Shown in pieces: positions 3,193 to 45,034 of a stretch of 64,000 nucleotides of DNA. The notes beneath the pieces were generated by a model. It was given only the letters and a program-made list of their open reading frames with translations, did no database searches and was not told the DNA's origin. The stretch covers positions 13,737 through 77,736 of the forward strand of contig JABLXR010000014.1 of assembly GCA_013178015.1 (NCBI GenBank), written 5' to 3'. Each line of letters begins with the position of its first letter. The stretch's first letter is position 1. The stretch is from Anaerolineae bacterium (GTDB taxonomy: Bacteria; Chloroflexota; Anaerolineae; DRVO01). The position numbers and the translations under genes are program-made.

Positions 3193-4002
3193 TCAGCGGT
3201 TGCGGTGAGAGTGCGCGAGGACGAGCTCGGCACAGAAGCGCACGCCGTCGTCGGCGGGGGCGTTGGGCCAGCCCTCGGGCTCGAAGGCCAGGTACCGATC
3301 GAAGCCGGCCCCCGCCAGGATGCCCACCAGCAGCGGGTAGTCGGTGATGCCCTCGGAGGGCCGGGTGTACTCGAAAGGACGCGGCTGCTTCTCAGGGGCG
3401 GCCACGAAATTCTTGACGTGCACGTGCACCACCCGGTCGCCCAATTCCACCGCCGCCTTGATGGGGTCGGACCCGGCTAGGATGAAGTTGCCCCCATCGA
3501 GGGTGACTTTCATCTCTGGACCCACCCGCTGCACGCATTCCTTGAGCTCCTCCCAGGTATGGCACATGCGCCCGGCGTTCTCAATGCTGAACAGCAGGCC
3601 GGCTGAGCGAGTGATCTCGAGGGCCTTCTGCAGCCCGTCCACGTAGCGGTTCATAGCCTCAGGGCCGCTGTTGGTGTGCTGACCTCCGGCGCTGAAGAGG
3701 TGGTCTATCCCGTGGCGGGTGCACACCTCGGCGCCCTGCCGCACGGCATCCAGCGAACCCTCGATGTCGGCGCCGGGGGTGATGAAGTCGGTGTGGATGC
3801 AGTAGACAGCAGGCTCCAGCCCGTGCTGGCGCAGGAAGGCGACGGCATCGTCAGGGCTGACGTTGATGCGCGCCAGATAGCGGGCGAACAAGTCCACACC
3901 CTGCAGCCCCTCGCTCTTGAGCTGCAGCACCGCATCGCGCCAGTCCATGACGCTACCGTCGTCGGCCCGTGGGTCTCCCATGAGCATATAGCTTACTTTC
4001 AA
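3193..4002 (-). CDS. Sugar phosphate isomerase/epimerase (xylose isomerase-like TIM barrel)
   Basis: Metal-ligand motifs FSIENAG, VTLDGGNF, VHVHVKN, LAFEPE; TTG start with AGGAG SD. Confidence 0.85.
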   Translation of the reverse strand: MKVSYMLMGDPRADDGSVMDWRDAVLQLKSEGLQGVDLFARYLARINVSPDDAVAFLRQHGLEPAVYCIHTDFITPGADIEGSLDAVRQGAEVCTRHGIDHLFSAGGQHTNSGPEAMNRYVDGLQKALEITRSAGLLFSIENAGRMCHTWEELKECVQRVGPEMKVTLDGGNFILAGSDPIKAAVELGDRVVHVHVKNFVAAPEKQPRPFEYTRPSEGITDYPLLVGILAGAGFDRYLAFEPEGWPNAPADDGVRFCAELVLAHSHRNR

Positions 4003-4082
4003 CGCGGTCTCCTAGAGTGGCTGGATAGTGTCCGCTGGATGGCGGCGCGGGGGCTCATGGCGCATCGCCCCGGTCTGTCCCG

Positions 4083-4853
4083 CTACCGCAGGCCCATCTG
4101 GCGCAGGTTGCGGTAGCTGATGGCCAGGCTCTCAAACGGGTCCCGCTGGCAGACGTCTTGTTCCACGGCCGCCCACTCTACCTGAGCGTCGTGGCATGCC
4201 TCCAGGATAGCGGGCCAGTTCAGGTTGCCCTCCCCGATTTCGGCGAAGGCCTGGGCCCCGTTCAGTATGACCATGTCCTTGAAGTGCACCACGGGCATGC
4301 GGCCGCGGAAGCGCCTGATCCAGGCCATGGGATCGCCTCCGCCGTGCTGGACCCAGTAGGTGTCGATCTCGGCCAGCAGGTACCGGGGGTCGCTCTCCGA
4401 GAAGAGGATGTCCAGCCCGGTGCGCCCATCGTACTTCTCGAACTCGAAGCTGTGGTTGTGATAGCTGAAGGTCAAGCCAGCCTCGGCCAGCCGACGCCCC
4501 ACCTCGCTTGCCTCTCGCGCGAAGCGACGGTAACCCTCGGCGCCCTCGCCGCGATACTCGCGGGGCATGCTGCCGATAGCCACATGCTTGCACTCCCACA
4601 GGCGGTGCTCTTCGATGACGGCGGGCAGGTCGTTCCACAGCCGGTCGGGGCTGGTATGGGTGTTGCACATGATCAGGCCCTCGGCGTCCAAGAGACGCTT
4701 GAGCTCCCGGGGCTCGATGGGACCGATGCCGGAGACCTGCACCGCTCGATAGCCCATCTCACGGATTCGCTGCAGGCCCTTGGCGATGTCCTCGGGGGTC
4801 TTCATGTACTCCCTAACGGTGTACAACTGAGCGGCGACACCCATTCGCTCCAT
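4083..4853 (-). CDS. Sugar phosphate isomerase/epimerase (xylose isomerase-like TIM barrel)
   Basis: AQLYTVR N-terminus, YHNHSFEF, EIDTYWVQHGG, VHFKD, VEQD motifs; GGAGG SD. Confidence 0.9.
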   Translation of the reverse strand: MERMGVAAQLYTVREYMKTPEDIAKGLQRIREMGYRAVQVSGIGPIEPRELKRLLDAEGLIMCNTHTSPDRLWNDLPAVIEEHRLWECKHVAIGSMPREYRGEGAEGYRRFAREASEVGRRLAEAGLTFSYHNHSFEFEKYDGRTGLDILFSESDPRYLLAEIDTYWVQHGGGDPMAWIRRFRGRMPVVHFKDMVILNGAQAFAEIGEGNLNWPAILEACHDAQVEWAAVEQDVCQRDPFESLAISYRNLRQMGLR

Positions 4854-4969
4854 GTGAGCCTCCTAGGGTAAGTGCATGGGACGCGGCGGCACCAAGCAGC
4901 GCCGCCGGGTGCCTCATTATGGGCCTCAGGCGGCAACGGCTCAAGCACGACCGGAGCCCGGCAGAGGCG

Positions 4970-6286
4970 TCAATGGGAGGACCGATCACCGCGCTTCGGC
5001 TCCTCGTCAGCAGGCCGGTCTAGCACCAGCCCCGAGGCCTCCTGGTCCTCCCCGCCAGCAATGGCTTCCTCCCCTGCGTCCCCCTCTACCGCTTCCCTGG
5101 TCTCCGCCACCGTGCGCCCGCGTATCCTCATGGGAGGTGTCCGCCGACCTAGCTCCTCCGAGCGGGCGGCTACCTCCGCCTCGACCTCGGCCACAGCCGC
5201 CGGCAGGATCCAGCCATGCCCCAGAGCGTGCTCCGCCATGGGCAGGGTGTTGTCCGCCAGAACCAGGGAAGAGCCCGCCTCCGCGATCTCCTCGGCTAGA
5301 CCGCGGATGGCGCGGACGCGGTCGGGCCCGGGGCTCACATTCCGGATGTAGACGGCCAGGATGCGCTCGGGATACTGGTGCACGATGTCGCGGTAGATCT
5401 CCGGGTCTTTCTCGCCGCTGTCGCCTATGAGGATGAAGGGCAGGCGAGGGTAGAAGTCCACGATCTCCCGGATCACCTCGGACTTGTAGGCCCGCTGGCG
5501 CAGGGGAAACAGACCCTCGGTGGAGAGGCCCCAGTCCCGGAGGAAGAGCACCGGGCCGAGGGGGATGTCGTTGAGCCTGAAGAACTGGGAAAGGAGGTCG
5601 TAGAAGTTCCAGGGGCTGTTGGAGACGTAGAACAGGGGGTTGAGGGCCGGGCCATCCGCGCCGTGCATGAATGCCCGATACAGGGCAGCCACTCCGGGGA
5701 AGGGCAGGCGAGTGTGGGCGTTGCCCAGCATGACGTTGCGCAGCATGCCTACCAGGTGAGTGGCGTCGGTGAAGACCACCGTGTCGTCAATGTCGCTTAT
5801 CACCCCGTACCTGGCGCCGGGCGGGGGGACGAGCACCTCGGCCGCGGCCGTTACGGGCGCGTACCCGGGCCGCCGCGGCTCCAGGAGCTCGAGCTCCACC
5901 CGGTGCCAGAGCCGGTCGGGGGGAAGGGGCCGGTCGGTCTCGATCAGGACCTCGAAGAATCCCTCGACGTCCGCTACGGCCTCCTGCTCCACCTTTCCGA
6001 ACCGGGCCCGCACCCGGGCATAGGGGATCTCATTGGTCTTCAGGCGACGATACATGTTCAGGAGGTTACGATACACGCTGTCCGCTTCGGTGGCAGGTCC
6101 GATCCCGCGGGCCTCCTGGACGCGGCCCCTGAGGCACAGCCGGTCGAGCGTTCCGTAGCCCCGGTAGGCCACGATCTCGATAGGGGGCCTACCCCCGAGG
6201 CGCTCGCGCACCCGGTACTTGAGGAGGTCGAACCTCTCCTCCATGCTGACCAGGGCCCGCAGCGCCTGCCTCCGCCAACTTGCCAT
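4970..6286 (-). CDS. App1-like phosphatidate phosphatase (DUF2183 family)
   Basis: VISDIDDT (DxDxT-like), YVSNSPWN, LIGDSGEKDPEIY and AVYIRNV motifs; start trimmed to MASWRRQ. Confidence 0.85.
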   Translation of the reverse strand: MASWRRQALRALVSMEERFDLLKYRVRERLGGRPPIEIVAYRGYGTLDRLCLRGRVQEARGIGPATEADSVYRNLLNMYRRLKTNEIPYARVRARFGKVEQEAVADVEGFFEVLIETDRPLPPDRLWHRVELELLEPRRPGYAPVTAAAEVLVPPPGARYGVISDIDDTVVFTDATHLVGMLRNVMLGNAHTRLPFPGVAALYRAFMHGADGPALNPLFYVSNSPWNFYDLLSQFFRLNDIPLGPVLFLRDWGLSTEGLFPLRQRAYKSEVIREIVDFYPRLPFILIGDSGEKDPEIYRDIVHQYPERILAVYIRNVSPGPDRVRAIRGLAEEIAEAGSSLVLADNTLPMAEHALGHGWILPAAVAEVEAEVAARSEELGRRTPPMRIRGRTVAETREAVEGDAGEEAIAGGEDQEASGLVLDRPADEEPKRGDRSSH

Positions 6287-6313
6287 CACCGGCTCTCCAG
6301 CTCCAACCAGGGG

Positions 6314-6493
6314 ATGGAACGCTGATGACGCCGATGATATGCTGATTGGCGCCGATTCCGAAAGGATGGGGGCATGGGTAGCGGGAGACCCTGGGTACCG
6401 GCCGCTGCTGAGGGCTCCCACGGGACGGGTTGCCCTTGTTTCCCTTTCTGATCAGCGCCGATGAGCGTATCATCGGCAGCATCTGCGTTCCAT
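6314..6493. repeat. Imperfect 43-bp inverted repeat with ~9-bp internal periodicity between divergent genes
   Basis: 6314-6356 versus the reverse complement of 6451-6493: 36/43 identical by manual alignment. Confidence 0.85.
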
Positions 6494-6517
6494 GGCGTTC
6501 CATCCAGGGAGGTAGCC

Positions 6518-7348
6518 GTGAGACCCGAGTTCACCCTGATCGCCGAGGGCTTGCCCGGAGCCGAGGGCCCGGTATTCGACCGCGATGGGCGGTTCTTCAT
6601 GGTGGTGCCGGACCGAGGACTGGTAGTGCGAGTGACGGACGACGGGCACGTGAGCACCCTTGCCGACACCGGAGGCATCCCGGCCGGACTGCAGTGCGAC
6701 CGAGAGAACCACCTGTGGGTGGCGGACATGAAGCTGGGCATCCTGCGCATCAGCCCCCAAGGCGCCATCGAGCCCATCGTCTCGCGCTTTGAGGACGCAC
6801 CCATACGCGGGTGTAACGACCTGTACTTCGACTCCCGGGGCAATCTGTACTTCACTGCCCCGGCCGGCTCCAGCGCCGAGAACCCGGTAGGAGAGGTGTT
6901 CTGCCGCCGCGCCGACGGCGAGGTGGTGCGGCTGGATCAAGGCTACCAGTTCTGCAACGGCATCGCTGTGACTGCGGACGACCGCCAGCTGATCGTGGCC
7001 GAGACGCGCACCAGGTCTCTCTGGGCCTTTGACATTGTGGCGCCGGGTGTGGTGGCGAACAAGCGGCTCTGGGCCCGGCTACCGGGAGAGCATGCCGGTG
7101 GGCCGGACGGGATAGATTTCGACGAGGCGGGCAATCTGCTGGCGACCAACATCGGCGGCAGTGCCATCGAGGTCTACGGCCCCGATGGTACCTGGCTAGA
7201 GAGCATCGAGACGCCCTTCACCCGCCCCTCCAACGTGCACTTCGGCGGGGACGACGGCCGCTGGGTCTACGTCACCGAGCACACCAACCACGCCGTCTGG
7301 AAGTTCCGCTGGCGGCACCGGGGGCAGCGGCAGTACTGCGAGGGCTAG
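6518..7348 (+). CDS. SMP-30/gluconolactonase/LRE family protein
   Basis: AEGPVFD, CNDLYFD, CNGIAV, PDGIDFDEAGNL, PSNVHFGG motifs; GTG start with GGGAGG SD. Confidence 0.9.
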   Translation: MRPEFTLIAEGLPGAEGPVFDRDGRFFMVVPDRGLVVRVTDDGHVSTLADTGGIPAGLQCDRENHLWVADMKLGILRISPQGAIEPIVSRFEDAPIRGCNDLYFDSRGNLYFTAPAGSSAENPVGEVFCRRADGEVVRLDQGYQFCNGIAVTADDRQLIVAETRTRSLWAFDIVAPGVVANKRLWARLPGEHAGGPDGIDFDEAGNLLATNIGGSAIEVYGPDGTWLESIETPFTRPSNVHFGGDDGRWVYVTEHTNHAVWKFRWRHRGQRQYCEG

Positions 7349-13072: not shown

Positions 13073-13207
13073 CCGACAGTCATCTCTGGTGGCCTGCTCC
13101 AGGACCCTGTCAACGCCCTAGCCGTAGGGGCGAACCTCGTGTTCGCCCGCAGCATTCTCCGGCAGTCACCTCTGCTGGCCTGCCCCAGGACCCTGTCAAC
13201 GCCCTAG
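13073..13207. repeat. 49-bp imperfect direct repeat (13073-13121 and 13159-13207) enclosing a single GTAG-type REP (13124-13148)
   Basis: ccgacagtcatctctggtggcctgctccaggaccctgtcaacgccctag versus ccggcagtcacctctgctggcctgccccaggaccctgtcaacgccctag (4 mismatches); the spacer begins ccGTAGGGGCGAACCTCGTGTTCGCCC. Confidence 0.85.
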
Positions 13208-38851: not shown

Positions 38852-39715
38852 CTAGCCGATCTCGTCCAGTAGCTTGTGGTAGGGCGCGTAATCCAGCAGC
38901 GGGCGAGGGTCGAAGGAGTAGTACACCTCCAGCCAGCCATCAGGCCGGCGGCGGCCGGCTCGCTGGTCCACCAGCCCCTCGATGACCTGCCCCTGGGACT
39001 TCCAGCTACGGAGGGCATCCATGACGGTCGCCTCCACCCGTTCGGTGCCCACCACGGCCCGGTTGGCCCGCAGGTGCACGTCCTCTCCCGACACCAGGGC
39101 ATCTTCGGGGGAGAGGTCGGCCCAGACAGCGTACTGCAGGAAGCTACGGACGGGGTCTGCCCGCCCGTACTCGGCCAGGATGGCGTCGCCGACCTGGGGT
39201 CCGTCGTAGGCGCCTACGCGGTGCACGGCCTCGTGGTCTATGTGCTCCCGATAGCCGTTGGGGATGAGGAGGCGGGTGATGTGCAGGCGGCGCAGCGTAG
39301 GGACGACGTTGGCGATGGTACCCAGCTTGCCCGAGTCGAGGTGCCAGCCGATGTAGGGCAGGACGCTAAAGTCGGCGTAGCCCATGCGGAGCACCCGTTC
39401 GGGCCTGACTCCGAGGCCGGCGTAAGCGTCTATGGTCTCCCGAGCCCGGACCTGGACGATAGTGGAGGCTTCCTCGGGCGTGCTGTAGCCGGCCCAGCCA
39501 TCGCAGAACACCAGGACGAAGACGTCGGCACCGTTGGCGAGGGCGGCCATGATGAGGTAACCCGCGCCCAGAGCGCCGTCGTCATCGTGTGGGGTGAGAA
39601 CAGCCAGGCGTTCGTTGCTCGGTTCCCAGCCGGGAAAGATCAGGCTGATGTCTTCGCTCTTGGTGCGGCGGCGCAGGTCGTAGTAGCGGAAGTCCCCGGC
39701 GTTGATGTCAGGCAT
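38852..39715 (-). CDS. PIG-L/LmbE family deacetylase
   Basis: TPHDDDG, FCDG, RARE, HIDHE; GGAGG SD. Confidence 0.85.
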   Translation of the reverse strand: MPDINAGDFRYYDLRRRTKSEDISLIFPGWEPSNERLAVLTPHDDDGALGAGYLIMAALANGADVFVLVFCDGWAGYSTPEEASTIVQVRARETIDAYAGLGVRPERVLRMGYADFSVLPYIGWHLDSGKLGTIANVVPTLRRLHITRLLIPNGYREHIDHEAVHRVGAYDGPQVGDAILAEYGRADPVRSFLQYAVWADLSPEDALVSGEDVHLRANRAVVGTERVEATVMDALRSWKSQGQVIEGLVDQRAGRRRPDGWLEVYYSFDPRPLLDYAPYHKLLDEIG

Positions 39716-40613
39716 GACGGCCTCCGTGTTGGCTATGCGCCCTCGCCGTGCGGGCGATGGCGGCAATATGTTCTGGTGTGCTGCCGCAGCAGCCCCCGAT
39801 GACCCGAACCCCTACGTCCAGGTAGCGGGCGGCGAACGAGGCCATCTCTTCCGGCCCCACATTGAAGTGCGTGCGGCCGTCCTCCCCGAGCACGGGCACT
39901 CCGGCGTTGGGCTTGGCCATGAGAGGGGCCTCGGGCAGCAGGTCGCGCAGTTGAGTGATGGCGGTGAGGGTATCCTGCAGGGTGTGGCCGCAGTTGGCTC
40001 CGATGAGGATCAGCCCCTCTTGCCAGAGATCCGCCAGCTGGGCTGGGCCGGCACCCATCACCGTGCGGGCACCGGGGCCGAAGCTAAGGGTGCAAGCCAC
40101 AGGCAAGGCGCAGGCCTGATGTGCCCCCTGGATAGCGGCTCGCGCTTCCTGGGCGTCAAGCATGGTCTCCACCAATATGGCGTCCACCCCCCCGGTGGCC
40201 AGCGCCTCGGCCTGCTCCGCGAAGGCGTCGCGGGCCTGGCTGAAGGAGAGGGGGCCCAGTGGTTCCAGAAGAGCGCCCGTGGAGCTGACGTCTCCGAAGA
40301 CGAAGCGATCCGGCCCTGCCTCCTCGCGCGCCAGGTGGGCGGCAAGCCGGTTGAGCTCGGACACCTGGTCATCCAGTCCGAAACGGGCCAGCTTGATGCG
40401 GGTCCCGCCGAAAGTGTTGGTGAGGATCACCTCGGCACCGGCCCGCACGTAGGCGGCGTGGACGGCGCGAACGGCCTCGGGGCGCTCGCGGTTCCATAGC
40501 TCGGGCGGCGTACCGGGCTCAAGGCCGGCCGCCTGGAGCATGGTGCCCATGGCGCCGTCGGCGACCAGTACGCGCTGGGCGAGGGCCAGCCTGAGCCTTG
40601 ACTCCTCCTGCAT
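39708..40613 (-). CDS. Homocysteine S-methyltransferase domain protein (stand-alone MetH N-terminal-like domain)
   Basis: DGAMGTMLQ, TNTFGG, ETM, GANCG, KPNAGVP, IGGCCGSTPEHI. Confidence 0.9.
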   Translation of the reverse strand: MQEESRLRLALAQRVLVADGAMGTMLQAAGLEPGTPPELWNRERPEAVRAVHAAYVRAGAEVILTNTFGGTRIKLARFGLDDQVSELNRLAAHLAREEAGPDRFVFGDVSSTGALLEPLGPLSFSQARDAFAEQAEALATGGVDAILVETMLDAQEARAAIQGAHQACALPVACTLSFGPGARTVMGAGPAQLADLWQEGLILIGANCGHTLQDTLTAITQLRDLLPEAPLMAKPNAGVPVLGEDGRTHFNVGPEEMASFAARYLDVGVRVIGGCCGSTPEHIAAIARTARAHSQHGGRHA

Positions 40614-40667
40614 ATCGGCGCCTCAGTGGGGTGGATAGCCTGCACCCGCCGGGAACAGGTCCGCGTC

Positions 40668-40696
40668 AGTGTAGGGCAGGGGAGGGAAGAGGTCAA
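40668..40696 (-). promoter_or_regulatory. Sigma70-type promoter for the homocysteine methyltransferase operon
   Basis: Minus strand TTGACC-17 bp-TACACT, ~55 nt upstream of the ATG. Confidence 0.6.
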
Positions 40697-40842
40697 GCGC
40701 TACTACTGACGGGGTGCATCTCGAGGAAGGGGCGAGGGGGTACCGGCGCCGGCTCTCAGGGTGGGAGGGGCCCCATGGGCCTAGACGAACCAGTCTGCGG
40801 CACGCCCGCCTCCTGGGACGGTGCACCGCCCGTCCACCATTC

Positions 40843-40935
40843 CCGTAGGGGCGAACCTCGTGTTGGCCGGTGGTTCCGCTGACCAGTGGAACGTGCGAAT
40901 ACAGGACCGGGCGAATACAAGATTCGCCCCTACGG
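40843..40935. repeat. REPIN-like doublet of inverted GTAG-type REP sequences
   Basis: ccGTAGGGGCGAACCTCGTGTTGGCC ... GGGCGAATACAAGATTCGCCCCTACgg; the first 22 nt are identical to the REP at 13122. Confidence 0.8.
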
Positions 40936-41061
40936 CAGGGATGACGGCGTGCGGCGCTGCTGCTGCGGTTCGCCCCCAAGCTGGGGTTCACCCCGGTCGG
41001 CGGGAGCGAGGGGCAGCCAGAAAGCCGGCGCAAGTCGTCAGGTTTCTTAATGCAGCCAGTC

Positions 41062-41090
41062 TTGACAGGCGGGCAGCTCGCCGCTATACT
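41062..41090 (+). promoter_or_regulatory. Near-consensus sigma70 promoter with no downstream protein-coding gene
   Basis: TTGACA (41062-67), 17-bp spacer, TATACT (41085-90). Confidence 0.85.
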
Positions 41091-41096
41091 GTGCCT

Positions 41097-41460
41097 ACAC
41101 TGGTGAAAGGCGATAGCCAGACACCAGTGGGGAGCCTCAAGCAGTCGAGTACGAGCTACGAGCGGACTGCAGCCGAAAGGCACCGAGGCCGGTACGTCGG
41201 TCAAGGACGGCCGTGAGGGAGCGATCCTTCGTCCAGGGTAGGGCCTGGAAGCCGTGACCGGGCCGCGACCCAGCGGAGGCCGAGCGCTAAGGCCGGAGCT
41301 AGCGATAGAACCGGCGGAAGGGCGAAGCGCCGCAGGGACAGCCGAGCGGAATGCTAGCGCAGGAAGCGGAGCTGAACCGGTACCAGGGCTTCTCCGAAAG
41401 GAGACGAGTAGGCTGGAGAGAAGTTCGTAAGAACGGAAAAGCTGGCTGAGGCTCCCGCCT
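41097..41460 (+). ncRNA. Candidate large structured non-coding RNA of unknown family
   Basis: Starts ~7 nt after the -10. 5' hairpin CACUGGUG/CACCAGUG; terminal helix GGGAGCCUCA (41130-39)/UGAGGCUCCC (41447-56); five GNRA-capped hairpins on the + strand; followed by a U-tract and a hairpin. Confidence 0.75.
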
Positions 41461-41472
41461 TTTGAGCGGCGA

Positions 41473-41504
41473 CGCGCCCGGGCTCCCATGAACCCGGGCG
41501 CGTG
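41473..41504. terminator. 11-bp GC hairpin between the ncRNA candidate and the convergent oxidoreductase gene
   Basis: acgcgcccggg-ctcccatgaa-cccgggcgcgt. Confidence 0.65.
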
Positions 41505-41535
41505 TCTTGCTGCCCCCAAGCCGTGGCCCGGGGGC

Positions 41536-42951
41536 TCAGGTGGGCCTGGAGCCCGGGAAGGGCGGATGAGGCCATTCCTCGGGCTCCTTGAGGTTGGCGA
41601 GTGCCTTCTGCACCACCTCAGGCAGAGCGGGATGGATGTGCATGGCGGAGAAGATGTGGCCCGTCTTGGCGTGCACTGCCATGGCGTTGATGACTTCCTG
41701 GATCAATATCGGGGCATAGGGGCCGATGATGTGGAAGCCGAGGATCTCGCGGCTATCTGCGTCTACTACTGCCTTGGCGAAAGCATCCTCCTCCATCATG
41801 GCCTCACCCTTAGCCACCTCGGCATAGCGCGCGTACCCGATGACCAGGCGGTGATCTCGCGCCGCCTCCCGCTGGGTGAGGCCGACCGCGGCGATCTGAG
41901 GGTAGGTGAAGACGGCATGAGGCACGGCGTGGTAGCTCATCTCTACCTTGCTGTCGTGTAGGCTGTTGTTGGCGGCCACGTAGGCCTCTTCATTGGCCAC
42001 GTGCCTGAACATCGCCTTGCCGATCACGTCGCCCAGAGCCCAGACGTTCTCCTTGCTGGTCTCCATCCGGGTGTTGACCACGATGAACCCCCGCCCGTCC
42101 ACCTGGACGCCGCTGTTCTGCACGGCGAGGAGATCGGAGTTGGGGATCCGTCCCGCCGCCAGGAGGATAGTATCCGCCTCCACCGTCAGCTCCTCCCCGG
42201 TGCTCTCGTCCGCCGCCACCACCTGCAGGCGGGAGCCGACGCGGCGCACGGCCACTACCTTGGTCCCGGTGTGTACCGTCATCCTCTGGGCCAGCTTGCG
42301 CTTGAGCAGGTCCGAGATCTCGGGCTCCTCGTCCATGAGCAGCCGTTCCTCCATCTGGAGGAGGGTGACCCGGGTGCCCACCGAAGCGAAGAAGTGGGCG
42401 TACTCGACGCCGACGTAGCCGCCGCCGACGATGACCATGCTCGCCGGCCGGTGGTTGAGGTCGAGCAGGGTCTCGTTGGTCAGATACTCCACCCGGTCCA
42501 GTCCGTCAATGGGCGGGATGGCCGGGCGAGCGCCGGCGCCGATGACGATCTTGTCCGCACGCAGGCGCTCGCCGTTCACCTCGAGGGTGTACTCGTCCAC
42601 GAAGCGGCCCACACCTTCGTAGAAGTCCAGCCCCTCGGCGGAGCGAAGGGAGCGGCGGATCTCGTTCCTACTGGGGATGACCACCGAGCGCATGCGCTCC
42701 ATGATGGCGCGGAAGTCCACGCGCATGATCTCGGCGTACACTCCCAACCGGGCAGCGTCCTCTATCTCAACCACTCGATCGGCGGGGAAGATCAGCAGCT
42801 TGGAGGGGATGCAGCCTACGTTCAAGCAAGTGCCCCCGGTGGGGCCCTTGTCCACCAGGGCCACCCTGAGCCCATGGGACAGAGCCATGTCCACCGCTGT
42901 CAGGGCCGAGCCGGAGCCGATAACGAGGTAATCGTAACGCTTGGTAGCCAT
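41536..42951 (-). CDS. Class I pyridine nucleotide-disulfide oxidoreductase (dihydrolipoyl dehydrogenase/mycothione reductase-like)
   Basis: VIGSGS, GGTCLNVGCIPSK redox disulfide, VGGGYVGVE, AAGRIPN, WALGDV, HIHPALPE. Confidence 0.9.
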   Translation of the reverse strand: MATKRYDYLVIGSGSALTAVDMALSHGLRVALVDKGPTGGTCLNVGCIPSKLLIFPADRVVEIEDAARLGVYAEIMRVDFRAIMERMRSVVIPSRNEIRRSLRSAEGLDFYEGVGRFVDEYTLEVNGERLRADKIVIGAGARPAIPPIDGLDRVEYLTNETLLDLNHRPASMVIVGGGYVGVEYAHFFASVGTRVTLLQMEERLLMDEEPEISDLLKRKLAQRMTVHTGTKVVAVRRVGSRLQVVAADESTGEELTVEADTILLAAGRIPNSDLLAVQNSGVQVDGRGFIVVNTRMETSKENVWALGDVIGKAMFRHVANEEAYVAANNSLHDSKVEMSYHAVPHAVFTYPQIAAVGLTQREAARDHRLVIGYARYAEVAKGEAMMEEDAFAKAVVDADSREILGFHIIGPYAPILIQEVINAMAVHAKTGHIFSAMHIHPALPEVVQKALANLKEPEEWPHPPFPGSRPT

Positions 42952-43040
42952 AGTGTCGCCCTTCAACGTGCCGAAGTGAGCGATCTACCGCTCCGAGCGA
43001 TTCTAGCACGAGGACCCTGAGGAGTCAGGTAGACCACGCA

Positions 43041-44002: not shown

Positions 44003-45034
44003 TTATACCACCGGCAGTTGGTGGTGTAAACCGCGAGCAAGGGCGCGCGCCTTTCGGCTACGGTAGGGCAAGTGCAACAGGCTAGCCGCCCGGCGCTTGG
44101 TTTCCTCTGGCCGGCGGTCACATGTGGCCATTGTCGTGGGCGATGCGTGCCCGGCCAGGGCTTGCACCGTCACCACGTCCGCGCCGGCATCCAGCATATC
44201 GCCAACAAACGTCCGCCTCAGATCATGCGGAGAGAATGAGCGTACCCCCGCCTCCTCTGCCCGGCGGGCCAGCATGTCATAGATGGTCTGCAGGTTCAGG
44301 CGCCGCCGCTGTATGCGCCCGCCCCGAGTGACGGGCAATAAGAGCGGGCCGGCCTCGGTGCCACGCGCCTTCAGCCAATCGGCCATGGCTTCGCCGGTGC
44401 CGTTATTGATCCACACGCGCCGCTCTCTGTCGCCCTTGCCGTGTACCCTCAGCTCGCCCGTCGCCGGGTGATAATCTGCCAGGTCCAGTGCCGGCACCTC
44501 CTCGCGCCGTAGGCCGCCCGTGTACATCACGCCGATGATGGCGCAGTCCCAGGGGCCGACGTTGGTGGCGTCATCGGCGCAGGCCTCTGCCAGCGCCGCC
44601 AGCTTGCCGTGCGACAGGGACCGGCCCGCGGGCGACCGCTCCCCGCGCACATTCTTCACCGGGTGTAGCCTGGCGTAATCGTCTGCCGACAGCAGGCCCA
44701 GATTGAAAGCCTCCCGCGCCACCCCGCGCCAGGCCGACGGGTTCAGGTGGATCGTCGCCGGCGCCTGGCCCGACTCTGTCAGCCTGGCGCGGATCGCGGC
44801 CGCGTGTTGGTGGGGGAGCATGTGCCAGGGCACGGCTAGCGGATCGTCGGCGCCCAAGAGGCCGGCCATGTAGCGCAGGCGCCCGAGCATCGCCCGCCTG
44901 GCTCGCTCACTGGACAGGCCCGCCAGGTAGACGGCCGCCGGGTTGCGGTCGCTCGGCAACGGCCCGCCCGTGGTTACTAGCTCGCCCGCCCCCGCCTCGG
45001 CTGCTACTTGTACAGCCCGTATCAGCTCGCTCAT
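44003..45034 (-). CDS. Tyrosine recombinase/integrase, probably inactive (catalytic Tyr replaced by Cys)
   Basis: GGLRREE, HGKGD, SPHDLRR and LAGHAS are present, but TTMATCDRR stands where ..YDRR is expected. Confidence 0.85.
   Translation of the reverse strand: MSELIRAVQVAAEAGAGELVTTGGPLPSDRNPAAVYLAGLSSERARRAMLGRLRYMAGLLGADDPLAVPWHMLPHQHAAAIRARLTESGQAPATIHLNPSAWRGVAREAFNLGLLSADDYARLHPVKNVRGERSPAGRSLSHGKLAALAEACADDATNVGPWDCAIIGVMYTGGLRREEVPALDLADYHPATGELRVHGKGDRERRVWINNGTGEAMADWLKARGTEAGPLLLPVTRGGRIQRRRLNLQTIYDMLARRAEEAGVRSFSPHDLRRTFVGDMLDAGADVVTVQALAGHASPTTMATCDRRPEETKRRAASLLHLPYRSRKARALARGLHHQLPVV

What the first reader, a model, noticed from the sequence alone, without database searches (positions are those of the whole stretch)
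41062..41504. Unannotated ~360-nt highly structured RNA gene behind a near-perfect sigma70 promoter
Seen in the sequence: TTGACA-17-TATACT points into a gap with no credible ORF on either strand. The predicted transcript starts near 41097 with an 8-bp hairpin (CACUGGUG/CACCAGUG). A ~327-nt body follows, closed by a perfect 10-bp long-range helix (41130-39/41447-56), then CCUUUUU and an 11-bp hairpin. Helices inside the body include GCAGUC/GACUGC, GCC-GAAA-GGC, UCGGUC/GACCGG with ACGGC/GCCGU, CC-GUGA-GG, GGA-GCGA-UCC, UCCAGG/CCUGGA, CCGC/GCGG, GGCC/GGCC with a self-complementary AGCGCU loop, GCUAGC/GCUAGC, UCUCC-GAAA-GGAGA and GUUC-GUAA-GAAC. That gives five GNRA tetraloops, all on the + strand, plus a possible long-range GCCGGU (41188-93)/ACCGGU (41376-81) pairing. 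Established knowledge: GNRA-rich multi-domain folds of this size typify ribozymes and large ncRNAs, but I find no RNase P GAGGAAAGUCC, no tmRNA T-arm/CCA, no SRP helix-8 loop and no group II intron domain V. Inference: an abundant, independently transcribed large ncRNA, possibly of an undescribed class, with potential tertiary or dimer contacts.
Basis: partly seen in the sequence, partly recalled or inferred. Interest (0 to 1): 0.9.

Follow-up and report, generated by a model that had tools for sequence, protein, structure and literature searches.

The report
New abundant structured RNA in Anaerolineae
This gap holds a real, separately transcribed gene for a very abundant, tightly folded RNA of about 360 bases that matches no described RNA family, so it is probably a new class of bacterial non-coding RNA whose job is still unknown.

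Summary
The finding holds up. TTGACA-17-TATACT (41062-41090) drives a stand-alone + strand gene for a 361-nt RNA (41097-41457). It is followed by a U-tract and a terminator hairpin.

- **Expression:** public metatranscriptome contigs cover only the RNA, never the flanks. For a homolog in one digester run the depth was about 2975 against 2-3 on the flanks.
- **Conservation:** six distinct full-length copies (68-89% identical) lie at the same syntenic spot in uncultured Anaerolineae. All keep the promoter, a conserved upstream TCTTAATG box, the 5' hairpin, the closing helix and a terminator.
- **Structure:** a 90-pair consensus is 95.5% paired. It has 24 compensatory pairs, against 10.2±2.3 in shuffles and 1-7 in slid controls.
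the 5' and 3' ~100 nt form an almost invariant interrupted rod (P1-P5). This rod carries three variable domains capped by GNRA loops. GUUC-GUAA-GAAC, GCUAGC/GCUAGC and the palindromic-loop hairpin are not conserved.
- **Known families:** Rfam 15 gives nothing for the body, and the hallmarks of RNase P, tmRNA, SRP, 6S and CsrB are absent.
- **Function:** unknown. My best guess is the core of a protein-RNA complex.
- **Head-to-tail joints:** seen in 3 of 16 RNA-type runs. They map both ends of the RNA but are probably cDNA artefacts.

The parts
41044..41052 (+). Conserved A/T-rich upstream box TTCTTAATG (-53 to -45), like an UP element
   Evidence: TCTTAATG followed by 9-10 nt and then TTGAC is kept in six of seven loci (window, L001, L008, L013, L021, L022); L009 has TTTTAATG. 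The pattern occurs once in the 64-kb window, with 0 expected. Its role as an UP element is inferred.
41062..41090 (+). Sigma-70-type promoter: TTGACA, 17 nt, TATACT
   Evidence: 11 of 12 consensus matches. The -35 TTGACA is identical in all six full copies. The -10 is TATACT, TATTCT or TAGACT, always with a 17-nt spacer.
41097..41457 (+). Mature RNA, 361 nt (5' end at A41097 or C41098, 3' end at G41457)
   Evidence: RNA-run contigs span 41108-41451 and nothing beside it. Joints in homolog L001 link 1756/1758 to 1405/1406, which equals window 41457 to 41097/98. An adapter lies flush after 41457 in run X7. CM and nhmmer find this single copy in the window.
41098..41129 (+). H0: 5' terminal hairpin (8 bp, a 3-bp apical stem and a GNRA-type loop). 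It abuts P1, so it should stack on it.
   Evidence: Helices 1 and 2 contain 5 pairs with compensatory changes. The apical loop reads GAUA, GAAA, GAAA, GUGA, GAAA and GAGA in the six copies.
41130..41145 (+). P1 and P2, 5' strand (GGGAGCCUCA-AG-CAGU); pairs with 41441-41456
   Evidence: 14 pairs, 100% paired; 12 never vary and 2 vary on one side only (helix 3). Coordinates.
41146..41155 (+). J2/3 5' strand, CGAGUACGAG, opposite AACGGAAAA (41432-41440): a conserved purine-rich internal loop with AGUA opposite GAA
   Evidence: CGAGUA and GAAAA are invariant in all six copies. Reading it as a loop-E-like motif is inference; the closing Watson-Crick pair is not conserved.
41156..41163 (+). P3 5' strand CUACGAGC; pairs with GUUCGUAAG at 41423-41431
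Evidence: 4 of 8 pairs have compensatory changes (G-C to A-U and A-U to G-C in 3 sequences each), 93.6% paired (helix 4).
41167..41174 (+). P4 5' strand CUGCAGCC; pairs with GGCUGGAG at 41411-41418
   Evidence: 7 pairs, all invariant (helix 5). P4 appears in the minimum-energy fold of the window RNA and in the six-sequence consensus fold. It competes with the equally invariant local hairpins GCAGUC/GACUGC and GCC-GAAA-GGC, and covariation cannot decide between them.
41189..41193 (+). P5 5' strand CCGGU; pairs with ACCGG at 41376-41380
   Evidence: 2 of 5 pairs are compensatory (CCGGU/ACCGG in clade 1, CCGAC/GUCGG in clade 2), 100% paired (helix 7).
41197..41266 (+). Domain A: a three-way junction with hairpin GAGGGA-GCGA-UCCUUC (41215-30) and hairpin CAGG..CCUG (41234-47)
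   Evidence: Helices 8-11 contain 6 compensatory pairs. The A1 loop is GNGA in 6 of 6 copies. The same shape appears in six independent minimum-energy folds.
41269..41337 (+). Domain B: a long irregular hairpin closed by CCC/GGG and capped by GCUA-GCGA-UAGA (41298-309)
   Evidence: Helices 12-16. The apical loop is GNRA in 6 of 6 copies. The same shape appears in all six single-sequence folds.
41340..41375 (+). Domain C: a hairpin with internal loops (GGAA opposite GGAA in clade 1; a GCC-GAAA-GGC tip in clade 2)
   Evidence: Helix 17 and the single-sequence folds. The basal stem reads GCCAG/CUGGC in L008 and L013 but ACCAG/CUGGU in L009.
41391..41404 (+). Hairpin D: UCUCC-GAAA-GGAGA, branching from the 3' strand of the rod
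   Evidence: Helix 18 has 2 compensatory pairs (UCCUC-GCAA-GAGGG in L013 and L010). The loop is GNRA in 5 of 6 copies.
41405..41456 (+). 3' strand of the rod: CGAGUA, P4 3' (41411-18), AGAA, P3 3' (41423-31), AACGGAAAA, P2 and P1 3' (41441-56)
   Evidence: The runs AGUAGGCUGGAGAGAA and GAAAAGCUGGCUG, then GGCUCC after one variable base, are identical in all seven copies, including the partial L010.
41458..41463 (+). U-rich tract (CCUUUU) directly after P1
   Evidence: A U-rich tract follows P1 in every copy. Its role as a first termination or processing signal is inferred.
41472..41503 (+). Terminator hairpin (11 bp), absent from the mature RNA
   Evidence: Seen in the fold. Five of the six distinct full copies and the partial L010 have a GC-rich hairpin here with an unrelated sequence; L001, L008, L013 and L010 have a clear U-run. 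The L022 contig ends before it. RNA-run depth is 0 beyond about 41457. The simple terminator scan did not call the window copy because its U-run is weak.

Best explanation
This is a stand-alone gene for a very abundant, stable, compactly folded non-coding RNA of 361 nt. It belongs to a family that is not in Rfam.

**How it is made**
- Shown: a near-consensus sigma-70 promoter with a conserved upstream TCTTAATG box starts transcription at A41097 or C41098.
- Shown: the first ~100 nt and the last ~80 nt pair with each other into an interrupted rod (P1-P5). Its sequence is almost invariant among relatives.
- Shown: the middle ~180 nt forms three variable domains capped by GNRA loops, and a fourth GNRA hairpin branches from the 3' strand.
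- Shown for position, inferred for process: the transcript runs into a U-tract and a terminator hairpin and ends up trimmed to one base beyond P1.
- Inferred: the 5' hairpin stacks on P1, so both ends are buried in helices. That would explain why the RNA accumulates about a thousand-fold above its neighbours.

**How it works (inferred)**
- It acts in trans as the RNA core of a protein-RNA complex.
- The invariant rod is the surface that a partner recognises. It carries two conserved CGAGUA-opposite-GAAA internal loops that resemble loop-E / sarcin-ricin motifs.
- The variable peripheral domains brace the three-dimensional fold through their GNRA tetraloops.
For: **Gene and transcript**
- Promoter. 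It is conserved in all copies.
- RNA-run contigs are confined to 41108-41451.
- For the L001 homolog in run X49, depth is 2975 against 2-2.7 on both flanks.
- Ten other metatranscriptomes give one RNA-sized contig each.
- Ends.
- The next gene downstream is convergent, so this is not a leader sequence.

**Family**
- Six distinct full copies and one partial copy sit at the same position: def, pyr_redox, then the RNA, then S-methyltransferase.

**Structure**
- 95.5% of cells are paired. There are 24 compensatory pairs, against 10.2±2.3 in shuffles (0 of 500 reach it) and 1-7 in slid controls.
- Six independent single-sequence folds of the central part give the same three-domain shape.
- GNRA loops are conserved at four hairpin tips.

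**The rod as functional core**
- 19 of the 21 pairs of P1, P2 and P4 never vary and 2 vary on one side only, while the peripheral helices covary freely at 68-89% overall identity.

**Not a known family**
-.
Against: - No partner protein, ligand or target is identified. The protein-RNA-complex idea rests on analogy with other abundant lineage-restricted RNAs (6S, Ms1, OLE).
- There are only six sequences in two clades, so each compensatory change may be one or two events.
- P1, P2 and P4 are invariant and therefore unproven by covariation. P2 and P4 compete with invariant local hairpins.
- The loop-E reading is pattern recognition. For the first loop the closing pair is not conserved.
- Neighbouring genes are ordinary metabolic genes that give no functional hint.
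- The family's true range is unknown, because my two large-collection scans used words that only clade 1 carries.
Confidence: 0.55

Rival explanations
1. It is a lineage-specific RNA-polymerase-binding regulator in the manner of 6S RNA or Ms1. An abundant RNA whose paired 5' and 3' halves mimic nucleic acid in the polymerase cleft would sequester holoenzyme or core enzyme.
For: The RNA is highly abundant and has a strong housekeeping-type promoter. Its 5' and 3' halves form a long interrupted duplex. Its size, about 360 nt, is close to Ms1 at about 300 nt (abstracts, PMC4191392 and PMC9130861).
Against: There is no Rfam 6S hit, even at E<=10. The centre is not an open bubble but a 180-nt, three-domain branched fold braced by tetraloops. 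The rod sequence is invariant, whereas in 6S it is the shape, not the sequence, that is conserved. 6S genes have been reported in Chloroflexi (PMC7726162, citing Wehner 2014), so no gap needs filling.
Confidence: 0.12
2. It is a ribozyme. The invariant rod and junctions would form an active site and the GNRA-capped domains would be the scaffold, as in RNase P or group I and II introns.
For: Four or more conserved GNRA tetraloops, multi-way junctions, an invariant core with variable periphery, and a P1-closed architecture.
Against: No substrate or cleavage or ligation site is evident. The 5' end coincides with the predicted transcription start, so there is no self-cleavage at the 5' end. Large ribozymes known so far are either universal or mobile, while this RNA is fixed at one syntenic site in one clade. 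No known ribozyme model matches.
Confidence: 0.12
3. The functional form is a covalently closed circle. The 3' end at G41457 would be ligated to the 5' end at A41097, and the two ends lie side by side where H0 stacks on P1.
For: Exact head-to-tail joints with no extra letters occur in three runs from two studies. X42 gives a 382-nt contig, which is a 352-nt cycle plus a 30-nt overlap. X10 joins 1756 to 1406. X44 joins 1758 to 1406 at a depth of only 10. A bacterial ncRNA with both linear and circular forms has a precedent, DucS (PMC10504365).
Against: Ten of the 13 metatranscriptomes that assemble the L001-type RNA in full give linear contigs, and adapters lie flush at 1417 and/or 1745-1749 in five of them. 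At depth 2975 (X49) nothing covers 1405-1416, 1746-1756 or a joint. A circle would be covered evenly there. The three joint positions differ from each other. The 5' end is the primary start site and would carry a triphosphate. Joints appear in the same libraries that capture the extreme ends, as expected for reverse-transcriptase template switching onto a second molecule.
Confidence: 0.08
4. It is a base-pairing or sponge RNA. It would titrate a small RNA-binding regulator such as CsrA, or pair with mRNAs or the 16S 3' end through its purine-rich single strands.
For: The RNA is purine-rich and U-poor (G 35-39%, A 25-31%, U 10-13%). It has many GGA and GGAG strings, and the A1 hairpin reads AAGGAG-N-GAUCC.
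Against: The GGA count is 15-18 against 12.6-13.7±2.9 in shuffles, so there is no enrichment. Most GGA strings sit inside conserved helices. The elaborate fold that is preserved by covariation is not what sponges need.
Confidence: 0.07
5. It is an extremely divergent copy of a universal RNA (RNase P RNA, SRP RNA or tmRNA) that the covariance models miss.
For: The size, about 360 nt, fits RNase P and tmRNA. P1 closes the molecule. A GNRA hairpin (D) sits before the 3' strand, much as P18 does in RNase P. The strings GAGGCCGG and GAACCGG faintly recall CR-I and CR-V.
Against: No Rfam hit at E<=10 for any of these families. ARAGORN finds no tmRNA. CR-I, CR-V, the SRP helix-8 motif, a T-loop and a 3' CCA are absent or lie at non-homologous positions in the six copies. 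The GAAC string is not kept in clade 2. Relatives with S-methyltransferase identity of 69% or less lack the RNA at this locus.
Confidence: 0.03
6. It is not an RNA gene. The region would code for protein, either the 298-aa minus-strand ORF at 40623-41519 or the 32-aa + strand ORF at 41351-41449.
For: Both ORFs exist mechanically. The 32-aa frame is open in clade 1 simply because the nucleotides are conserved.
Against: No Pfam hit, and the product is low-complexity R/P/S/A-rich. Substitutions preserve base pairs. The start codon of the small ORF is missing in clade 2. Transcripts start and stop at the RNA borders, not at the ORF borders.
Confidence: 0.01

Closest known systems
6S RNA and Ms1 RNA (RNA-polymerase-binding RNAs)
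   Same: A stand-alone gene with very high abundance. The 5' and 3' halves pair into a long interrupted duplex. Like Ms1, it is lineage-restricted and about 300-360 nt long.
   Different: There is no open central bubble. The centre is a branched, GNRA-braced three-domain fold. The rod is conserved in sequence rather than only in shape. There is no Rfam 6S match. Polymerase binding was not tested.
Orphan large structured bacterial RNAs (OLE, raiA motif, GOLLD, ROOL)
   Same: It is large, ornate and rich in GNRA loops and multi-way junctions. Like OLE and raiA it is very abundant, restricted to particular lineages, and of unknown or only partly known function.
   Different: No match to any of their Rfam models. 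There is no associated partner gene such as oapA for OLE. It has no phage or tRNA-island context and no hit in viral contigs. At about 360 nt it is smaller than OLE, GOLLD and ROOL.
Bacterial RNase P RNA
   Same: Similar size. A terminal P1 helix joins the ends. Long-range nested helices lead to a multi-domain body. A GNRA hairpin sits just before the 3' strand of the core.
   Different: The universal CR-I and CR-V sequences are absent, there is no P3-type hairpin between P2 and the next helix, and no Rfam hit. The distribution is narrow, not universal.
DucS of Bacillus altitudinis (a linear and circular ncRNA)
   Same: Head-to-tail junction reads exist for a bacterial ncRNA with a defined linear form (PMC10504365).
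   Different: Here the joints occur in only 3 of 16 RNA-type runs and are absent at 2975-fold depth. An artefact is the more likely reading. There is no sequence relation.

Membership tests
Any Rfam 15 family (4227 models) | A covariance-model match at or near the gathering score | tested here: not met
   0 hits at gathering score in the whole 64-kb window. At E<=10 in 40500-42000 only 7 weak chance-level hits appear, none in the RNA body; four lie in the flanks and three over the terminator hairpin, one of them (mir-770) reaching back only to 41448. 0 hits at E<=1 in five homolog loci.
Bacterial RNase P RNA | Universal core sequences CR-I (GAGGAAAGUCC) and CR-V (ACAGAANCCGGCUUA) forming P4 | tested here: not met
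   The best approximate matches need 2-4 substitutions and fall at different, non-homologous positions in the six copies. CR-V is absent in 5 of 6.
Bacterial RNase P RNA | Present in essentially all bacteria, as an essential single-copy gene | tested here: inconclusive
   Related contigs with S-methyltransferase identity of 69% or less lack the RNA at this locus. Whole genomes could not be searched.
tmRNA | A tRNA-like domain (acceptor stem, T-arm, 3' CCA) plus a tag reading frame | tested here: not met
   ARAGORN finds no tRNA or tmRNA in the window. The 3' end is ..CCCG..CCUG or ..CCUU, and there is no T-loop.
SRP RNA (4.5S or long form) | Helix 8 with the conserved GGAA tetraloop and the AGCA and CAGG loops | tested here: not met
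   No Rfam SRP hit. Motif searches give only 2-4-mismatch hits at non-homologous places.
6S RNA / Ms1 | A long duplex formed by the 5' and 3' halves | tested here: met
   P1-P5 pair 41130-41193 with 41376-41456.
6S RNA / Ms1 | A large single-stranded central bubble that mimics an open promoter | tested here: not met
   The centre (41197-41375) folds into three helical domains supported by covariation.
6S RNA / Ms1 | Binds RNA polymerase; templates product RNA | not testable with these tools
   Needs co-immunoprecipitation or in-vitro transcription assays.
CsrB/RsmZ-type protein sponge | Many GGA motifs, enriched and displayed in hairpin loops | tested here: not met
   15-18 GGA strings against 12.6-13.7±2.9 in composition-matched shuffles. 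Hairpin loops are GNRA, not ANGGA.
Cis-regulatory leader or riboswitch | Lies upstream of, and on the same strand as, the gene it controls | tested here: not met
   The next gene (41536-42966) is on the minus strand and convergent. A terminator follows the RNA.
Circular or viroid-like RNA | Head-to-tail junctions present at the same depth as the body in every library | tested here: not met
   Joints occur in X10, X42 and X44 only. The other ten L001-type runs give linear contigs, five of them with adapters flush at an end, including one at depth 2975.
Circular or viroid-like RNA | No DNA template (an RNA replicon) | tested here: not met
   DNA copies with promoter and terminator exist in the window and in five further distinct loci.
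Phage or mobile-element RNA | Encoded on viral or mobile DNA, at variable locations | tested here: not met
   0 hits for two family-wide patterns in 2.9 million viral contigs. The syntenic position is fixed in all copies.

The most novel reading that the evidence does not exclude
This would be the founding member of an undescribed class of large bacterial RNA with a biochemical role of its own. It could be a new ribozyme, or the core of a previously unknown protein-RNA complex in Anaerolineae. These are dominant but mostly uncultured organisms of anaerobic digesters and the subsurface. The RNA is expressed at levels comparable to the classical housekeeping RNAs, and a fraction of it may be circularised in vivo.
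Probability: 0.3. Interest if true: 0.9.

Novelty: categorically new. Interest (0 to 1): 0.8.

Why it matters
- **Rarity:** new classes of large, highly structured bacterial RNAs are rare. Each earlier one (RNase P, tmRNA, 6S, OLE, raiA, ROOL and GOLLD) opened a line of biochemistry.
- **Strength of the evidence:** this candidate already has the evidence that most computational candidates lack. It has a conserved promoter and terminator, mapped ends, about a thousand-fold over-representation in many independent metatranscriptomes, and a fold supported by covariation.
- **Where it lives:** it belongs to Anaerolineae that are abundant in digesters, sludge, compost, groundwater and oil-field water. 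It may therefore be one of the most abundant non-ribosomal RNAs in those communities, and a contaminant or marker in their RNA-seq data.
- **Scope of the novelty claim:** "categorically new" here means no relation to any described RNA family. The general kind, a stand-alone structured ncRNA, is of course familiar, and the function is not known.

Tried and rejected
1. **Exact-word scans.** The genome-contig scan with GACTGCAGCCGAAAGGCAC gave one true homolog (L001) and one chance hit inside a gene. The metagenome-contig scan with CCGAAAGGCACCGAGGCCGG gave five chance hits inside genes. Both words turned out to be specific to clade 1 (clade 2 reads GGUAC or GGUGC). These scans therefore understate the family's range and say nothing about its absence elsewhere.
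3. **Synteny walking.** The pyr_redox and S-methyltransferase proteins found the other copies. The trail ends at about 68% protein identity: L011, L014-L020, L023 and L024 have no RNA.
4. **CsrA-sponge idea.** Rejected, because GGA is not enriched.
5. **RNase P, SRP and tmRNA hallmarks.** Rejected.
6. **Protein-coding reading.** Rejected.
8. **Phage origin.** No hits in viral contigs.
9. **Literature.** No paper in the library contains the invariant strings, and keyword searches found no description of such an RNA.
10. **Neighbouring genes within about 10 kb.** Ordinary metabolic genes with no RNA ligase, Ro, or other obvious RNA partner.
Full report
**1. What is in the sequence**

The gap between a homocysteine S-methyltransferase gene (39708-40613, minus strand) and a pyridine-nucleotide-disulfide oxidoreductase gene (41536-42966, minus strand) contains these elements, all on the + strand:

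| Element | Coordinates |
|---|---|
| Promoter TTGACA-17-TATACT | 41062-41090 (11 of 12 matches) |
| 8-bp hairpin CACUGGUG/CACCAGUG | 41098-105 / 41122-29 |
| 10-bp helix joining the two ends | 41130-39 / 41447-56 |
| CCUUUU tract | 41458-63 |
| 11-bp GC-rich hairpin | 41472-82 / 41493-503 |

- The 408-nt stretch folds at -203 kcal/mol, z = -6.9. The opposite strand also gives z = -6.2, so energy does not choose the strand.
- A 298-aa ORF spans the region on the minus strand. Its product is R/P/S/A-rich junk with no Pfam hit.
- The + strand is strongly purine-skewed here. The RNA has only about 10% U.

**2. It is transcribed as a discrete, very abundant RNA**

- Runs that hold 31-mers of the region include many metatranscriptomes from groundwater, oil-field water, sludge, compost and freshwater.
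- In four of them the only contigs that lie on 40600-42000 cover 41108-41451 or part of it. The flanks have depth 0.
- For the homolog in L001, each of eleven metatranscriptomes gives a single contig of RNA size.
- In run X49 that contig has depth 2975, while both flanks have depth 2-2.7.
- In several libraries, adapters are assembled flush against the insert. The P7-side adapter lies at the RNA's 5' side and the P5-side adapter at its 3' side. That is the orientation expected for stranded libraries of a + strand RNA.

**3. Ends**

- Three runs contain exact head-to-tail joints of the L001 RNA with no inserted letters:
  - 1756 to 1405, in X42, where the contig is a 352-nt cycle plus 30 nt.
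  - 1756 to 1406, in X10.
  - 1758 to 1406, in X44.
- Positions 1405/1406 lie 7-8 nt after the -10 box, which is the predicted start. Position 1756 is one base beyond P1.
- In window coordinates the RNA is 41097/98-41457, or 361 nt. An adapter flush after 41457 in X7 agrees.
- The terminator hairpin is therefore not part of the mature RNA.
- I read the joints as reverse-transcriptase template switching, not as a circular form, for three reasons:
  - The other ten metatranscriptomes that assemble this RNA give linear contigs, five of them with adapters flush at 1417 and/or 1745-1749.
  - At depth 2975 nothing covers a joint or the terminal 11-12 nt.
  - The joint position varies between runs.
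- A minor circular fraction is not excluded.

**4. Relatives**

- One exact-word scan of GTDB genomes found L001, a MAG labelled Anaerolineae bacterium.
- Walking through the two flanking proteins and their contigs gave further copies:
  - L008 (GCA_032942435.1), L009 (a Logan assembly), L013 (JGI) and L022 (a Logan assembly).
  - L012, which is identical to L001.
  - L010, a 3' fragment, and L021, which holds only the promoter.
- The six distinct full copies are 352-361 nt long and 68-89% identical. They fall into two clades: window, L022 and L001 against L008, L009 and L013.
- All lie between the oxidoreductase and S-methyltransferase genes, convergent with the oxidoreductase.
- All six keep the TTGACA box, a 17-nt spacer, a TAnnCT -10 box, the 5' hairpin, P1 and a U-rich tract; five keep the TCTTAATG box and L009 reads TTTTAATG. 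Wherever the contig reaches that far (all but L022), a terminator hairpin of unrelated sequence follows.
- The clade-2 form is the one seen at depths of 4000-7000 in sludge runs.
- Contigs whose S-methyltransferase is 69% identical or less have lost the synteny and carry no copy.
- No copy occurs in 2.9 million viral contigs. The window has a single copy.

**5. Structure**

RNAalifold on an unguided MAFFT alignment of the six copies predicts 90 pairs. Counting those pairs gives:

| Measure | Observed | Shuffles | Slid controls |
|---|---|---|---|
| Cells paired | 95.5% | 90.8% | 28-44% |
| Pairs with changes on both sides | 24 | 10.2±2.3 (0 of 500 reach 24) | 1-7 |

The architecture, with coordinates:

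- **H0:** 41098-129.
- **P1 and P2:** 41130-45 / 41441-56. 12 of 14 pairs never vary and 2 vary on one side only.
- **P3:** 41156-63 / 41423-31, with four compensatory pairs.
- **P4:** 41167-74 / 41411-18. Invariant.
- **P5:** 41189-93 / 41376-80, with two compensatory pairs.
- **Domain A:** a three-way junction, 41197-266.
- **Domain B:** a long hairpin, 41269-337.
- **Domain C:** 41340-375.
- **Hairpin D:** 41391-404.

Further points:

- Six separate single-sequence folds of the central part give the same three-domain shape.
- GNRA-type loops are conserved at the tips of H0, A1, B and D.
- 40 G-U cells work only on the + strand.

- **Upheld:** the H0 hairpin, P1, UCGGUC/GACCGG, ACGGC/GCCGU, GGA-GCGA-UCC, UCCAGG/CCUGGA, UCUCC-GAAA-GGAGA and the "possible" GCCGGU/ACCGGU pairing.
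- **Rejected:** GUUC-GUAA-GAAC, which is 58% paired with no compensatory change. Its bases form P3.
- **Not conserved:** GCUAGC/GCUAGC and the GGCC hairpin with the palindromic AGCGCU loop.
- **Undecidable:** GCAGUC/GACUGC and GCC-GAAA-GGC are invariant and compete with P2 and P4.

**6. What is conserved**

- The rod is nearly invariant in sequence. It holds invariant runs of 26, 19 and 17 nt, and 22 of 23 nt at the 3' end. The peripheral helices covary freely.
- CGAGUA occurs twice, each time opposite a GAAA(A) string:
  - 41146-51, after P2, opposite 41436-40.
  - 41405-10, before P4, opposite 41175-78.
- The second occurrence fits the loop-E / bulged-G pattern, including its closing pair. 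The first lacks a conserved closing pair. This reading is inference from the sequence.

**7. What it is not**

- **Rfam 15:** no hit at gathering score in 64 kb. Nothing in the RNA body at E<=10. Nothing at E<=1 in five homolog loci.
- **tRNA or tmRNA:** ARAGORN finds none.
- **RNase P, SRP, T-loop, CCA:** RNase P CR-I and CR-V, the SRP helix-8 motif, a T-loop and a 3' CCA are absent.
- **Sponge:** GGA is not enriched.
- **Leader:** the next gene is convergent.
- **Phage or mobile element:** no.
- **Literature:** no paper in the library contains its invariant strings or describes such an RNA.

**8. Mechanism**

- Shown: this is a strongly expressed, stand-alone, end-protected, compactly folded RNA with an invariant rod and a variable periphery.
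- Inferred, at about 0.5 of the probability mass: it works in trans as the core of a protein-RNA complex, and the rod is the recognition surface.
- Rivals:

| Rival | Confidence |
|---|---|
| 6S/Ms1-like polymerase binder | 0.12 |
| Ribozyme | 0.12 |
| Circular functional form | 0.08 |
| Sponge or base-pairing RNA | 0.07 |
| Divergent universal RNA | 0.03 |
| Protein-coding | 0.01 |

- The reported presence of 6S genes in Chloroflexi (PMC7726162) lowers the 6S-replacement idea.

**9. Limits**

- There are only six sequences in two clades.
- All run data are assembler contigs, so depths are k-mer means and rare forms cannot be quantified.
- My two large scans used clade-1-specific words, so the family's breadth is unknown.
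- The genomes could not be checked for canonical rnpB, ssrS, ffs and ssrA.
- No experiment bears on function.

Noticed in passing
L001:1405-1758 (equivalent to window 41097-41459): Exact head-to-tail joints of the RNA occur in three metatranscriptomes (X42: 1756 to 1405; X10: 1756 to 1406; X44: 1758 to 1406). In X42 the contig is a 352-nt cycle plus a 30-nt overlap. Ten other runs give linear contigs. The likely cause is template switching, but a minor circular form is not excluded.
   Followed up: partly
window 40843-40935: An inverted repeat, CCGTAGGGGCGAA ... TTCGCCCCTACGG, sits between the two divergent promoters. The intergenic region of the other loci is 190-256 nt against 483 nt here, so this looks like an insertion. 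The 11-mer also occurs at 13124-13134, and a contig of run X13 carries 40902-40945 in a different context. It may be a small dispersed palindromic repeat.
   Followed up: partly
window 40668-40696 (minus strand): This is the divergent promoter of the S-methyltransferase operon, TTGACC-17-TACACT. The same element (TTGACC-18-TAGACT, seen as AGTCTACGGCAGC...GGTCAA on the RNA strand) is conserved in L008, L009 and L021. The RNA gene and the operon are therefore a back-to-back promoter pair.
   Followed up: partly
window 1-64000: The whole 64-kb window has no tRNA or tmRNA (ARAGORN) and not one Rfam hit at gathering score.
   Followed up: no
L001:1417 and 1745-1750: In ten independent libraries the contig starts within one base of the same position (1417 in seven runs, 1416 in two, 1418 in one) and stops at 1744-1754. 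Adapters lie flush at one or both of these ends in five of the runs. The first 12 and last 2-12 nt of the RNA are systematically missing. I read this as a library artefact on an unfragmented RNA, but a cut in the H0 loop in vivo is not excluded.
   Followed up: partly
runs X8 and X9, loose ends next to window 41191 and 41422: Further variants exist whose sequence after the conserved 5' block differs from both clades. One example is ACATTCTGGCCCAGGGCGGATTCTAGAGGG in a freshwater metatranscriptome. Another has a 3' end reading GAAAAGCCGGTTGGGGCT. The family has at least one more clade that was not recovered as DNA.
   Followed up: no
window 41351-41449 (+): A 32-aa ATG ORF lies inside the RNA. 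It is open in clade 1 (37 aa in L001) only because the nucleotides are conserved, and its start codon is missing in clade 2. Gene callers might pick it up.
   Followed up: yes
window 44003-45034 (minus strand): A gene of the phage-integrase / Xer family lies 2.5 kb downstream of the RNA, next to peptide deformylase. It is not part of the synteny that is conserved with the RNA.
   Followed up: no
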